From NCBI RefSeq assembly GCF_016026235.1, contig NZ_CP065613.1: a stretch of 64,000 nt of DNA, one strand, 5' to 3'. The stretch is from Escherichia coli (GTDB lineage: Bacteria; Pseudomonadota; Gammaproteobacteria; Enterobacterales; Enterobacteriaceae). This document shows positions 15,001 to 30,000 of the stretch, one piece after another. Position numbers: made by a program. The stretch's first letter is position 1, and each line of letters begins with the position of its first letter.

Positions 15001-18000
15001 CCACAGTAAATGGCGGCATGATTCGGCACCGATGAACCAAAACAGCACAGCAGCACATCGCCCGGCTGCGCCGCTGACAACGGCACCTGATACAGCCCTG
15101 TGGCCTCCAGATTATCCAGATAGAGATTCTGACCGTTACGCCACCAGTCATCCTCGCGATGAAAATCCGGCATCTCAATCCCCGCCAGATGGTAAGCATC
15201 CCGGAACAGCGTGTAACAGTCCGTCACCCCGTGCTCAAAGCGCCGCCCGGAAAGATGTGGCACACAGCGGAACTTGTGAATCGCCCCCCGGCAAACCAGC
15301 CACCACGGCAAATCACTCTGCACCTGCAGCCGCCGGTCGGTCTCACTCAGCCAGGGCAGACCACCGGGGTGGCTGTGGACCAGCGCCACAATCTCACCCT
15401 GCATCTCTGCCCGCAGCCAGTCCTCCGGCGACATCCGGAAATACTCCTCCGGCTCACCGGAGATATTCACGCAGGGAAAATATCTTTCCCCCTCCGGTGT
15501 TCTCACCACGAAGCCGCACGACTCCGCTGGCGCACATCGCCGGGCGTGCGCCAGAATCGCTGATTCTGTCTCTGTCATGGGATTCACTGCGAAAGTTTGT
15601 TAATGGAAAGGAAGCCGCCAAAGTTGCCGACGTTATTGCGAAACTTACAGCCGCTCAGGCATTTGCTGCATTTATCCTTCGTGATATCGGAGGTCGGCTG
15701 GTCATATTCATCCGCGACCGCCGGACCGTGATAACCGCACTCATCACCGCGATAGGTCCAGGTGCAGGTATTAGCCAGCATGATGCGCCCCGGAAAAACA
15801 GCGCCGTCCGTTTCCGTCGGCGTGGACAGTACAAAAGAGGCACTCACCGCGCTCAGTTCGCTGCACTGCTCGATGCGCCAGCGGCTGATCACCTCCTGCT
15901 CCGGATCGGCGTCACTGTTTCCGTTGACGAAGTTCACCGCATCCAGAAAACGGGCGTAAACCTTACGCCGGACCACCGTTCCTCCGACCAGACTCTGCAG
16001 GTCTTCCGCCATCCCGGTGACCATGCCGTGCAGGTTAGAAACCGTCAGTGTCGGACGGGCAGCACTGCCTTTGCCGTTCAGTTCAAATCCCGTCCCCTGA
16101 ATGGGATACGCCTGATACTGTCGCCTCTGCCAGGTGACCGGCTCACCTTTATCGTTCTGCTCATTACAGAAAAAATAACGTTCTCCACCGACCACTGTCA
16201 GATCGATTTCCCAGAGCACCACCTGGGCTGACTGAGTGAGGCGTGTCGTCTCATGATGTGTTTCCTGTGGAATATCCTGCATCAGAGACTCCTATGCCAC
16301 GACCTGTTCAAAATCTGCCGTTATGGTTACCCACAACGCCCCCACGCTTGCCGACCATTTACGACAAACCACCCTGATCGGCTTCCAGTCATAAGGTGGC
16401 GTCCACTGAAATGCGCGGACGCCACCGTGCCGTTCCAGAAAGGCTTTTAAAGATGGGTGTTCACCTTTACGAACACGTATCGTCACGCTGTAAGTCGACA
16501 ACTGGTTATTCAGTCCCGCCGCACGACGCTGTTCATAACCATCGCCCAGCTTCACTGTCACCACTTTCGGCTCTGATACCACATTCATATCCGGGCGCAC
16601 TTTCCAGTGAAACGTCTCCATTACCGGTATGCTCCACTTAACCGGCCACCATCACGGGCCTGCTGTTGCATAAAGTCCGCGGCCGCTTTTTTCCCGAGGT
16701 CATAAACCACCTTCAGGGCAGCCGGACCTATCTGCCCGTTCGTGCCATCGTTATTGATCTCAATGTTGTACTGCGGGGCAAACATCACCATGCCTGAACC
16801 ACCAGTATCCGCCACAACCCCAGCTTACCATCAGCACCGCGACGCAGTGGCAGAATGGCTTCAGGTCCCGCTTCCCCCATCACACCCGCGCCTTTTGCAA
16901 AAGCAAAAAACGTCGGACGGTTAACCACCGTGCCACTGTAGCGACTCAAATCAGCAGACTGGTAAACACCGCCATCAGCATTAGTCGTGAAGCCGAATAA
17001 AGAACCGACGCCCTTTACCGCCTGCATCATGGCCATCTGTGCCATAATTCTGGCCATATCTGACAACAGGGAAGAGGTAAAGGATTTAAAATTCAGCTTA
17101 CCGGTGGTACAGAATGTCGCCAGTGCATTACCGGCACTGCTGAATGCCACTGTAAACATCTGTTCTACCGTTCCCGCCGCATTATCCGCATCCGCCGTAA
17201 AATTCTGAAACGCCCGCATGGCACCGTTTTTCCAGTCGCCCTGCGCCACTTCCAGTTCCTGCCAGTAGCGTTTGTTTTCATTCAGTTGTCGCTTCAGGCT
17301 CCCCTTCAGCACCTCCTCAGCCCTCCGGTAGTCCTCCGTCCCGTAAGTGCCTTTCTGGCGACTGTCATTCTCAAGCTGTTGCAACTGTTGCCGGTATTCC
17401 TGCCGGATGCGCAACTGTGCCTGGTAGCGCTGCCGCTGCTTATCCCCCATACCTGCAGTGGCAATATCCAGATTGTGCTGCTCACGCAGTGCACGTTCTT
17501 TGTCTGCCAGCTGGCTGGTCAGCTGAACCGTTTTTTTTCTCAGGTCGTTAAGCGCTGTCTGTTTCTGCAGCTCCTGCTGTTTCACATCCAGCAGCGTCAG
17601 CGCCTGAATCAGCTCATTCTTACGGGCCAGCACACTCTTTTCATCTGCCGTCAGCTTTTTCCCGCCCAGGTCGCTGATGCGCTGCTGCAGGGCCAGAAGC
17701 TGTTTATGCGCTTCAGTCATCCTTTCAGTGGCAATGCCTGCTGACTGTCTGGCAGCAGCAATCTGCCCTTCCACCTGTGCCTGCTGCTGACTGTACTGCA
17801 GCAATAACCGGGTGGCCTCATCATTACGGGTTGCCCGTGTATTTTTCTTAATGGCTTTTTCGTAACGTTCATTTTCACGCTGTATCGCCGCATCCCTGAC
17901 AGCCTGGTCGGCGTACTGCATGGCATTAATACGCGCAATTTCCCGCTGATGTCGTGCAGCTTCCGTTTCATTCATCCGGTTCAGCGCGGCATTTTCAGCA

Positions 18001-27000: not shown

Positions 27001-30000
27001 GTCGGCCCGTTCGTCCGGTGTTATCAGGGAATGTACGGGTGATCAGTTTTGCGCGCCGGATGCTGTCGCCCTTAAACAGGTAAATACGTTTACCAAGGCC
27101 ATCACGACGGCAACGACGCCAGAATTTATAGGCATTATCAGTGACCCCGTCTTCACCGCCGGAGTCCACCGCCATTGCCATCAGTCGCATTTGTTGAGAA
27201 GGATCGGAGGCCAACGGCCAGCTTTTATGAAAAACATCCGTCAGCAGGACATCCCAGTCCTCAGGATAACCAGCAGGATCAATTCGCAGGCTTTCTCCGT
27301 TGTTGTCACAACGCAATGACTGCGTGATGTTGTAACGATCAATAATCCAGCGTTCGCCACGGCAACCATAACCCGTTACCTGAACCACAAAACGGCGATG
27401 ACGTCCCGCCTGCACATCCACTGTCGCCGCCAGGAAATTAACACCATCCGGCACGCAGCGGGGAGGAACAGGCTCTGCCCGCTGCTCAAGCAGTTCACTT
27501 TTTCGTTGCTCCATGCTGGCGCGGGGAAGATAAGGTAATCCCCAGTCGGTGTTGATAACCGCCCTGAGTGTTTCTTCACTTCCGGTTGTCTCGTATTCCT
27601 GTTCTGCAGTAAGCAGTTTGTAAACGAGTTGCGAGAGTGTCTGGTAAGCAGCTGCCGGACCCTCCATCCAGAATGACGCAATACGTGAACGCCTGGGATC
27701 ACCATAACGACTGCCATCCGCATTGATGGATTCACCATCCCGCAACCAGACCCCACGTCCGTTCAGCTCACGTTTTTGTTCAGGCATAATCCGTCCTGAA
27801 CAGGAAGGACACTGAATATAAGCCGCCTCACTTGCCAGCACGGGATCGGCAATATCACGGAAACCAGCAACCACATCGCCGCAGGGCTGAAAATACTCAC
27901 CACAGTGTGGACAGGGCCAGTACCAGCGACGGCGATCGCCACGGTTATAGAGCGACAGTATCCCCGTGGTTGGTGGAGCCTCATGCGGTGAAGTCCGTCG
28001 CCATTTCACATCCTTCACATCCCTGCCGGGGGAACTCTCCACCAGCGTCATACCACTGGACATAAATGTTGTGGTACGTTTTGAGGCAAGAGAGAAAGCA
28101 TCCCCCTCACCATCAATATCTTCCGGAAAACGGTCATAATCCGTCAGCGCGACGCATTTATAATCTGATGAGGACATGATATTGACTGACGGCCAGCCGA
28201 TTTTCAGGTAGTTGCCAGCAAGGAATGTTCTGTCATAAACGTTGTTGTCATTTTTGTTCGGACTCAGGCGACTGACCACTTCCGGGCTGACGCGAAACGT
28301 TCTGGCGAGTCGTTTTTTGGAGTGTTCGCGGGCTTTTTCCTCCGTCATCTGAATGATCAGCATATCAGCAGGATCGCAAATCACGTTGTAAATCACCCAG
28401 CCGTCAATCAGGCCGATAGTCTTGCCGGTTCGTGCCGGGCCAACAAATATCACTGCGTCGTATTCACGCGAGGCCAGGCAGTTCATCGGCTCAATAACAT
28501 ACGGTGCCACCAGCGGATCCCACGGGACTGAGTTCCCTGCCCCCATGGGCACCCGCATATACTGAGCAACGGCATCAGCAACCCGCATTCGTCTTGGTGC
28601 GCGAAGGATATAACCTGAATCGGTTCGTGCTGCCTTTGCGGTTTCCTGATTCAGCATTACTCCTCCTGCTGTAATTCCTCCTCATCATCCGCACCTGCTT
28701 CAGTCACCCGCAGGGCTATCTGATCGCGCAGATCATCAATAATGGACTGAACACGGCTCACAGCGGCAGGCTGCAGACCGCAGTCACGTTCAAGAATATC
28801 CGGTAATGTCTCCAGCACCTGCACGACCGCTTTTGCCCAGATGGCAAACTCCCGTCTGACATCACTGGCCGGAATGAGTTGTGCCGTTTCCTGTTCGAAC
28901 TTAAGACGCTCACGTTCAGACTGATACCAGGCTTTGCGCTCATGCGCGTCCATTTCGCCTTCTGCAACCGGCGGTGGTAATGCCAGAAATGCCGACACAA
29001 TATCAACCACCCGATAAAGCTTGAGGTTGCTTTCATGCCCCCTGCAACGGGTAGATTTTGCAGCCTTGCCGCAGCAGTCTGGCGATGTACACCTGACAGT
29101 GCCGCCAGTTGACTGATATTCAGCGTCAGATTTTTTAACTCTCGATCCATACCCGCTCCAGAATGTTTTAAACATGCATCTTGCGAACAACTTTAGGCAA
29201 ACGGTGTTAGTGATGAACAAAAAACAATCAAAACCGACAGCACAAAAATAAAACCACTGTAATATCAATACATTACAGTAGTGGTGATGACGAATGAAAT
29301 TTCAAAAACTAGCCTTTTTCCGCGCCGCTCCCGCCCCGTGGCAGGCCACCCCACCGGGAGGACCCGTCAGCCTGACAGCCATGACGAACGTCTGATACAG
29401 CGCCCTGCATGAATGACATCGGGATAATCCAGAAAGGAATAGCATCGTACCCACAAGAATCAGTGTAAGTGTCCTGTTTCTTCCACCCCCGCACAGGACT
29501 GGCGAGCATGAGGGACAAACCCGCGAACCATAAACGCGGTAAAAACCCGGTGTGCATCGTTTTTGATTATTCCCGCACACTCGCGCAGAAGGAGTTCCCC
29601 GTCGGGCTACGGTCATGGTTAATGCGGGAATACAGCGACGATACAGCGCATGATGTGTCAGGCCTGAATACCTTTATCCGTTAAAAGGGATATCAGTTAA
29701 GTTATCCCGTGTAGGGTATAAGCCATTATCAAGCCCACCCGTAGATGGACTTTGTAATGGATAGCTGTTGCTCAGTTCTCGTAATGCTTTGATTTTTCCG
29801 ATAACGCAGTTTTGCGTTTGCCATCAGCACGCGATATCGAGAGTCAACTGCAGTTGCTCGCGCCAGTACTCGACATTTGCTTCAATAACCGGCTTATCCC
29901 ATCGCCAGCGAGCCATCTCTCTTGCCCCATTGCTGGCTTTTGATTTCCGGTCATCGCGAATGCGACATGCTTGCTCATATTTCTGCTGCTCAGTCAGTTC

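What the first reader, a model, noticed from the sequence alone, without database searches (positions are those of the whole stretch)
16621..29150. Five late genes are each broken by a missing base at a homopolymer run
Frame restoration needs +1 nt in every case. The sites are: H at the C4 run 16818-16821; G at the C4 run 20060-20063; the capsid at the C5 run 23559-23563; the protease/capsid junction at one of two T4 runs (24197-24200 or 24202-24205); and terS at the C5 run 29038-29042. The uniform direction and homopolymer context are the signature of either slipped-strand decay of an unselected prophage or homopolymer under-calling by the sequencer. Against a pure artefact, other 5-nt runs in J (for example 12131-12135 and 12903-12907) and in torZ (57727-57731) are in frame, and all backbone genes are intact.
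Basis: seen in the sequence. Interest (0 to 1): 0.6.

Follow-up and report, generated by a model that had tools for sequence, protein, structure and literature searches.

The report
Probable homopolymer miscalls in prophage genes
Five one-base gaps that break four prophage head and tail genes are really in the sequence, but a near-identical copy of the same prophage in another assembly has all the bases, so they are most likely sequencing or assembly errors and not gene decay.

Summary
Compared with intact relatives, the window lacks exactly one base at each of five mononucleotide runs: 16818-16821, 20060-20063, 23559-23563, 24197-24200 and 29038-29042. These are the only indels between 16300 and 29760. 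They break four genes, not five, because protease and capsid are one 686-aa fusion gene that is hit twice.

The orthologous prophage in an NCTC assembly (UGFA01000002.1) sits at the same yecD/ipaH locus and carries a J protein found in only one other record. Over window 756-30287 it differs from the window by one substitution plus these five deletions, and all four of its genes are intact. Relatives that differ by 52-73 substitutions over the same 13 kb have no indels. In mismatch-repair-deficient E. coli, substitutions still outnumber indels about 6-7 to 1.

All five sites lie in a block of at least 13 kb that is present twice in the NCTC genome. Long-read homopolymer errors typically survive polishing in such repeats.

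Best reading: homopolymer under-calling in an unpolished long repeat (about 0.85). Recent real slippage is not excluded (about 0.1). The prophage is truly defective elsewhere, through three IS600 insertions and a real A7-to-A6 frameshift at 46480. Interest is low.

The parts
16818..16821 (-). C4 run (G4 on the coding strand). It is C5 in all intact relatives. The missing base breaks the tape-measure gene H 55 codons before its end.
16621..19661 (-). Tape-measure gene H. As written it gives 958 aa plus a 64-aa tail ORF. It is 1013 aa once one base is restored.
17167..17167 (-). The only substitution between the window and the NCTC twin over 756-30287. It changes A832 to V in H and is not seen in any of the 16 fetched loci that match this exact context.
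20060..20063 (-). C4 run, C5 in intact relatives. It breaks the tail assembly chaperone gene G about 90 nt before the G stop. This is upstream of the G/T overlap, so both gpG and the gpG-T fusion product would be lost.
19971..20356 (-). Gene G. It gives 105 aa as written and 128 aa when restored.
19633..19962 (-). T reading frame, annotated as 'tail assembly protein T' in relatives. It lies in the -1 frame relative to intact G, as in lambda G/G-T.
   Evidence: frame relation read from the sequence; frameshifting itself is inferred from lambda
23559..23563 (-). C5 run, C6 in intact relatives. This is the second break in the ClpP-protease/major-capsid fusion gene.
24197..24200 (-). T4 run, T5 in intact relatives. 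This is the first break in the fusion gene.
22838..24896 (-). ClpP-like prohead protease/major capsid protein fusion gene. It is 686 aa when both bases are restored and falls into three ORF pieces as written.
29038..29042 (-). C5 run, C6 in intact relatives. It breaks the small terminase gene after about 36 codons.
28657..29150 (-). Small terminase gene (DUF1441 family). It is 164 aa when restored.
16479..29649 (.). Block present in two near-identical copies (L027 and L028) in the related NCTC genome. All five deletions fall inside it. The left limit is a minimum, set by the end of the fetched locus.

Best explanation
The five missing bases are most likely errors of the assembly, not features of the organism's DNA. 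They look like homopolymer-length under-calls, mainly in G/C runs of true length 5-6, left in the consensus of a prophage head-tail module of at least 13 kb that occurs more than once in this genome lineage.

Proposed mechanism (inferred). Reads that cannot be placed uniquely in a long exact repeat are ignored or misplaced during consensus polishing. Draft long-read homopolymer deletions therefore survive in the repeat. Unique DNA, and short repeats that single reads span (IS600, 1.26 kb), are corrected.

Shown here: the deletions exist, they are the only indels in the region, a near-identical orthologous copy lacks them all, and the block is duplicated in a close relative.

Inferred: the sequencing platform, the polishing history, and the presence of a second copy in the window's own genome.
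For: (1) The J protein of this prophage occurs, among about 15 billion proteins, in only two records (STL97184.1 and QPR10344.1). The one readable record, NCTC UGFA01000002.1, carries the prophage at the same ruvC-aspS-yecD-ipaH locus.

(2) Window 756-24225 against that locus differs by one substitution and four deletions. Window 16559-30287 against L028 differs by one substitution and the five deletions. All four genes are intact in the NCTC assembly.

(3) Five indels to one substitution is the reverse of natural spectra. Relatives with 52-73 substitutions over the same 13.2 kb have no indels (L002, L019, L020, L021). The window's own early region has 3-13 substitutions and no window-side indel against L023, L025 and L019. 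Mismatch-repair-deficient E. coli lines still give about 6-7 substitutions per indel (PMC8510543). At an indel share of 0.13, P(at least 5 of 6 events are indels) is about 2e-4.

(4) All five changes are contractions. The same signature at higher density is seen in another assembly of this module: CP026824.1 has 21 one-base deletions, 19 of them in G/C runs of 3-6.

(5) Different long-read assemblies of the same module disagree with each other at different runs (L024, L027, L005, L023). An Illumina-style draft (L021) and the FDAARGOS assemblies (L002/L026, L020; L025 over the 5.5 kb that align) show no indels.

(6) All five sites lie in the block duplicated in the NCTC genome, 16479-29649. None occurs in the 15.7 kb to its left, which is identical to NCTC. 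Fisher p = 0.035 for G/C runs.

(7) The literature states that homopolymer-length errors are the commonest residual errors of long-read bacterial assemblies and often remain in repeats after short-read polishing (PMC8812927 abstract). It also reports that false deletions after 4-5-nt runs dominate gene-fragmenting errors (PMC12007338).

(8) Fragments that only this combination of breaks would produce are absent from the 15-billion-protein collection: the 958-aa H fragment with either A or V at 832, both N-terminal fusion fragments, the middle fusion fragments and the 130-aa terS fragment. The fragments of the real frameshift at 46480 are on 4 and 52 contigs.
Against: No reads are available, so the platform and polishing history are unknown.

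The prophage is truly defective (IS600 in helicase and integrase, frameshift at 46480), so its late genes are free to decay.

Contractions of these same runs occur in other prophage lineages in assemblies that look accurate, so these runs do slip in nature:
- G C4 in Logan contig L008, which has no other indel.
- Capsid C5 in five independent Logan runs that share broadly similar breaks in the fusion and H genes.
- H C4 in Logan L016.
- The terS junction ORF in two Logan contigs.

Longer A/T runs (T8 at 17531 and 26619, A7 in IS600) are not contracted. A simple length-dependent under-calling model would not predict that. G/C bias fits both real slippage and the error profile of CP026824.1.

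Clustering in the repeat is only modestly significant: p = 0.035 for G/C runs and 0.058 for all runs.

The window and the NCTC assembly are not collinear to the right of 30287 (IS600, then 98.9% identity). They may therefore be different strains, not two assemblies of one strain.
Confidence: 0.85

Rival explanations
1. Real, recent pseudogenisation. Five independent slipped-strand contractions arose in the late genes of an already dead prophage in this strain after it separated from the NCTC strain.
For: The prophage cannot replicate or excise normally. IS600 interrupts the replicative helicase gene (36751-38020) and the integrase gene (51413-52676), and a real A7->A6 frameshift lies at 46480.

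The same runs are contracted in other prophage lineages in accurate-looking assemblies.

G/C runs are known indel hot spots (PMC8510543).
Against: Five indels against one substitution over 13.7 kb, and none elsewhere in the 29.5 kb shared with the NCTC twin.

One knockout is enough to kill the phage, so selection cannot explain five.

Under neutrality, even a mismatch-repair-deficient spectrum predicts several-fold more substitutions than indels (P about 2e-4 to 2e-3).

All five events are contractions. Relatives with 52-73 substitutions carry no indels.
Confidence: 0.1
2. Paralogue cross-talk. Some of the contracted alleles are real but belong to, or came from, another near-identical copy of the head-tail module in the same genome. 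They reached this copy either by gene conversion in vivo or by read mixing in the assembly.
For: The NCTC genome holds two copies that are identical except for run lengths (L027, L028). The other copy shows T4 at the protease site in L027 and C5 at the capsid site in L024.
Against: No single other copy seen carries more than one of the window's five alleles among the near-identical copies. L027 also carries five one-base insertions, three in A runs of 5-7, that look like errors themselves. A donor with all five alleles would face the same indel-to-substitution problem.
Confidence: 0.04
3. The breaks are decoded: programmed -1 ribosomal frameshifting or transcriptional slippage at the runs restores the full-length proteins.
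For: A -1 shift would restore the frame at every site. Gene G of lambdoid phages does use a programmed -1 frameshift, but at a different place (established knowledge; frame relation seen).
Against: Relatives, including the near-identical twin, encode continuous ORFs, so the breaks are not conserved.

The G break lies about 90 nt upstream of the G/T overlap and leads into a frame that stops after 7 codons.

Runs of 4-5 are far shorter than known transcriptional slippage tracts (established knowledge).
Confidence: 0.005

Closest known systems
Residual homopolymer-length errors in long-read bacterial assemblies that persist in repeats after short-read polishing (Wick & Holt 2022, PMC8812927; Kastor, PMC12007338)
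   Same: One-base length changes confined to mononucleotide runs, all of them deletions, fragmenting otherwise intact genes. They are concentrated in a long repeat, and unique DNA is clean.
   Different: The platform and the reads are unknown here. Longer A/T runs are untouched, so the profile is G/C-biased and not simply length-dependent.
Decay of cryptic lambdoid prophages in Shigella/EIEC by IS insertion and frameshifts
   Same: The prophage carries ipaH and three IS600 copies, has disrupted helicase and integrase genes, and has one frameshift (46480) shared with many independent assemblies.
   Different: The five late-gene breaks are not shared with the near-identical orthologous prophage and come with almost no substitutions.
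Lambda gpG/gpG-T programmed -1 ribosomal frameshift
   Same: The G and T frames are arranged as in lambda, with T in the -1 frame overlapping the end of G.
   Different: The lesion at 20060 is a separate upstream deletion that is absent from relatives. It destroys this arrangement and is not part of it.
mEp460 / cdtI-type head module (DUF1441 terS, GpA-type terL, portal, ClpP-protease/capsid fusion)
   Same: Same gene order, about 91-92% DNA identity and the same fused protease-capsid gene.
   Different: In the window the module is joined to the tail module and ipaH cargo of a Shigella/EIEC prophage. The orthologous EIEC prophage (RMDEC332) carries a lambda-type head module instead.

Membership tests
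Assembly homopolymer-length error | One-base length difference confined to a mononucleotide run | tested here: met
   All five are -1 changes in C or T runs, and there are no other indels in 16300-29760.
Assembly homopolymer-length error | An independent assembly of (nearly) the same DNA has the other length, and that version gives the intact, conserved ORF | tested here: met
   NCTC UGFA01000002.1 shows one substitution plus the five deletions over 756-30287. The restored proteins equal the NCTC proteins, apart from one residue in H.
Assembly homopolymer-length error | Indel-to-substitution ratio incompatible with natural divergence | tested here: met
   The ratio here is 5:1. It is 0 indels per 52-73 substitutions in relatives and about 1:6-7 in mismatch-repair-deficient lines.
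Assembly homopolymer-length error | Location in a repeat too long to be polished | tested here: inconclusive
   The block is duplicated in the related NCTC genome and all five sites lie inside it (Fisher p = 0.035). The window's own genome could not be read.
Assembly homopolymer-length error | Raw reads support the longer run | not testable with these tools
   No read data are available.
Prophage pseudogenes by slipped-strand decay | Frameshift truncates a gene that is intact in homologues | tested here: met
Prophage pseudogenes by slipped-strand decay | The same alleles are present in independent assemblies of the same lineage | tested here: not met
   The only other readable assembly with this J allele has none of the five. 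The break-specific protein fragments are absent from the collection. No short-read data for this lineage were found, so the test is limited.
Prophage pseudogenes by slipped-strand decay | Accompanied by neutral substitutions in the usual excess over indels | tested here: not met
   One substitution against five indels.
Programmed -1 frameshift (lambda G/G-T type) | The shift site lies at the end of G, leads into the T frame and is conserved among relatives | tested here: not met
   The break at 20060 is about 90 nt upstream of the G stop and enters a frame that stops after 7 codons. Relatives have C5 and a continuous G.

The most novel reading that the evidence does not exclude
All five contractions are real and very recent. 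They would then come from a localised, strongly indel-biased process acting on one copy of a duplicated prophage module, for example error-prone repair synthesis during recombination or gene conversion between the copies. Such a process would silence structural genes at G/C runs without adding substitutions.
Probability: 0.07. Interest if true: 0.35.

Novelty: not a real feature. Interest (0 to 1): 0.07.

Why it matters
If these are errors, the value is practical. Four 'pseudogenes' in this record should not be counted as evidence of prophage decay, and the head-tail module may be structurally intact.

It is also a clear example of homopolymer errors surviving only in a long repeat while the backbone looks perfect. 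'Backbone genes are intact' is therefore not a safe argument against an artefact.

If they were real, it would be ordinary decay of a cryptic prophage with an unusual mutation spectrum.

Tried and rejected
(1) Exact look-up of the C-terminal capsid fragment (233 aa) and of the 54-aa H tail ORF as markers of the window's alleles. Both fragments arise from several different upstream lesions, with runs of 4, 5 or 6 or other breaks, so they are not allele-specific.

(2) Look-up of the L protein to find the left end of the duplicated block. The protein is too widespread (1990 blocks) and the NCTC copies were not among the places returned.

(3) Literature search for the accessions CP026824, CP026875, CP026836, UGFA01 and GCA_900449985, to learn platform and strain. 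Nothing useful was found.

(4) Reading the G break as the programmed G/T frameshift. Rejected from its position and its lack of conservation.

(5) A uniform error rate over the whole window. Rejected: there is no window-side frameshifting indel in the 15.7 kb to the left of the block, in the backbone, in the IS600 copies or in the early region compared with L023/L025.

(6) The E. coli complete-genome collection does not hold the window's own record. The best match to window 1-16500 is 97.5%.
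Full report
**What is there.** Window 5-53 kb is a lambdoid prophage on the minus strand. It is inserted between yecD and yecE, carries an ipaH effector gene, and is flanked by ruvC-yebC-nudB-aspS on the left and cmoAB-torZY-cutC-argS on the right. Its late region (16.3-29.8 kb) is an mEp460/cdtI-type head module joined to a lambda-like tail module, at about 91-92% DNA identity to those phages. The gene order is:
- terS (DUF1441 family)
- terL
- a small ORF
- portal
- ClpP-protease/major-capsid fusion
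- decoration and head-tail joining genes
- Z, U, V, G, T, H, M, L, K, I, J

**Check of the observation.** The prophage of E. coli FDAARGOS_943 (L002) is 99% identical and has every late gene annotated intact.

| Window position | Change | Gene |
|---|---|---|
| 16818-16821 | C5 to C4 | H (tape measure) |
| 20060-20063 | C5 to C4 | G |
| 23559-23563 | C6 to C5 | protease/capsid fusion |
| 24197-24200 | T5 to T4 | protease/capsid fusion |
| 29038-29042 | C6 to C5 | terS |

Adding one base at each site restores H (1013 aa), G (128 aa), the fusion protein (686 aa) and terS (164 aa). Two details need correcting. Protease and capsid are one gene in all relatives, so four genes carry five lesions. 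The break in G lies about 90 nt upstream of the G stop and leads to a stop after 7 codons. It is therefore separate from the G/T overlap, where T lies in the -1 frame as in lambda.

**The decisive comparison.** The window's J protein (1157 aa) exists in only two records among about 15 billion proteins: STL97184.1 and QPR10344.1. The readable one, NCTC assembly UGFA01000002.1, holds the prophage at the same chromosomal locus. Window 756-24225 differs from it by one substitution (17167, A832V in H) and four of the deletions. Window 16559-30287 differs from the overlapping locus L028 by that substitution and all five deletions. In the NCTC assembly all four genes are intact. G, the fusion and terS are identical to the restored window proteins, and H differs by one residue.

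**Why this points to an artefact.**
- The ratio is five indels to one substitution. In the same 13.2 kb, relatives that differ from the reference by 52-73 substitutions have no indels at all (L002, L019, L020, L021).
- The window's own early region shows 3-13 substitutions and no window-side indel against L023, L025 and L019.
- Even in mismatch-repair-deficient E. coli mutation-accumulation lines, substitutions outnumber small indels about 6-7 to 1: 6.02 against 0.85 per CDS, and 2,582 against 426 (PMC8510543). With an indel share of 0.13, five or more indels among six events has P of about 2e-4.
- Selection cannot explain five knockouts, because one suffices.
- All five changes are contractions, four of them in G/C runs. 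CP026824.1, another assembly of this module, shows 21 one-base deletions in the same 13 kb, 19 of them in G/C runs of 3-6.
- Different long-read assemblies of the module disagree with one another at different runs, with no consistent phylogenetic pattern (allele table). An Illumina-style draft (L021) and the FDAARGOS assemblies (L002/L026 and L020, and L025 over the 5.5 kb that align) show no indels.

**Why only here.** The NCTC genome contains two copies of the block (L027 and L028). Apart from one base change beside the H C-run in L027, they differ over at least window 16479-29649 only in homopolymer lengths. All five sites fall inside that block. The 15.7 kb to its left is identical to NCTC. 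The backbone shows no frameshifting indel against relatives. The three IS600 copies carry no indels.

The enrichment is only modestly significant. Four of 16 G/C runs of true length 5 or more are contracted inside the block against 0 of 19 outside (p = 0.035). For all runs the figure is p = 0.058.

The pattern fits a known failure mode. Homopolymer-length errors are the commonest residual errors of long-read bacterial assemblies and often remain in repeats after short-read polishing (PMC8812927). False deletions after 4-5-nt runs dominate gene-fragmenting errors (PMC12007338). My inference is that single long reads span IS600 (1.26 kb), so it gets polished, whereas a 13-kb exact duplicate does not. 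The platform and the presence of a second copy in the window's own genome could not be checked.

**What speaks for real decay.** The prophage is truly defective.
- IS600 interrupts the replicative helicase gene (36751-38020) and the integrase gene (51413-52676). A third copy sits at 47821-49084.
- An A7-to-A6 change at 46480 splits a 130-aa early gene into 49-aa and 81-aa ORFs. These fragments are found on 4 and 52 contigs, including many draft assemblies, so that frameshift is real.
- Contractions of the same runs exist in other prophage lineages in accurate-looking assemblies. G C4 occurs in Logan contig L008, which has no other indel. Capsid C5 occurs in five independent Logan runs that share broadly similar breaks in the fusion and H genes. 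H C4 occurs in L016. A junction ORF diagnostic of the terS contraction occurs in two Logan contigs.

These runs therefore do slip in nature. Longer A/T runs in the block are untouched, which a simple length-dependent error model would not predict. The window and the NCTC assembly also diverge to the right of 30287, so they may be related strains and not two assemblies of one strain. None of this removes the ratio argument.

**Verdict.** The best explanation is homopolymer under-calling in an unpolished long repeat (about 0.85). Real recent slippage (about 0.1) and paralogue cross-talk (about 0.04) remain possible, and recoding is effectively excluded. Reads or copy-specific amplicons across the five runs would settle it. 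Either way the finding is ordinary: an assembly artefact, or routine decay of a cryptic prophage.

Noticed in passing
window 46382-46773 (A run at about 46480): A sixth homopolymer frameshift lies outside the finding. An A7-to-A6 change, relative to EIEC RMDEC332, splits a 130-aa hypothetical early gene into 49-aa and 81-aa ORFs. Both fragments exist in other assemblies (4 and 52 contigs), so this one looks real and lineage-wide.
   Followed up: partly
window 36751-38020, 47821-49084, 51413-52676: Three IS600 copies. The first interrupts the prophage replicative helicase gene and the third interrupts the integrase gene near its 3' end. The prophage is therefore defective regardless of the late-gene breaks.
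   Followed up: partly
window 6108-7859 (+): A 583-aa ipaH-type T3SS effector gene (annotated ipaHd in relatives) sits next to the tail-fibre genes. It marks the host as Shigella/EIEC-like. The nearest readable records are labelled E. coli.
   Followed up: no
window 20.6-29.8 kb vs L030 (RMDEC332 2817900-2862000): The orthologous ipaH prophage of EIEC RMDEC332 shares the tail module (98.9% DNA identity over 16302-22148, H and G intact) but has a lambda-type head module (Nu1-like terS, S49 protease, separate capsid) in place of the mEp460-type module. The head module has been exchanged.
   Followed up: partly
window 30287 onwards vs L028: To the right of the KilA-N gene the NCTC twin has an IS600 and then only 98.9% identity. 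The window's early region (30873-39725) instead matches CP026875.1 (L023) at 99.95-100%. This is either a recombinant prophage or a mis-join across the repeat in one of the assemblies.
   Followed up: partly
window 19962-19990 (- strand): The end of G ('ccg gaa aag tcc tga') overlaps the T frame in -1. This is the expected place of the lambda-type G/G-T programmed frameshift. The heptamer is not the lambda G GGA AAG.
   Followed up: no
window 17167: A G-to-A change (A832V in the tape measure) is not seen in any of the 16 fetched loci that match this context. It is the only substitution against the NCTC twin over 29.5 kb.
   Followed up: yes
window 11245: J lacks 6 nt in frame relative to EIEC relatives. 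The NCTC twin shares this, so it is a real lineage marker.
   Followed up: partly
window 34055-34130 (-): A single tRNA-Met (CAT) gene lies in the prophage early-late junction. RMDEC332 has four tRNA genes (Gly, Thr, Arg, Ile) at the corresponding place.
   Followed up: no
L005 (CP026824.1) and L027 (UGFA01000002.1 641043-663145): These public assemblies carry many one-base homopolymer discrepancies in the same module (21 deletions in L005; 5 insertions and 1 deletion in L027). Pseudogene counts from them should be treated with caution.
   Followed up: partly
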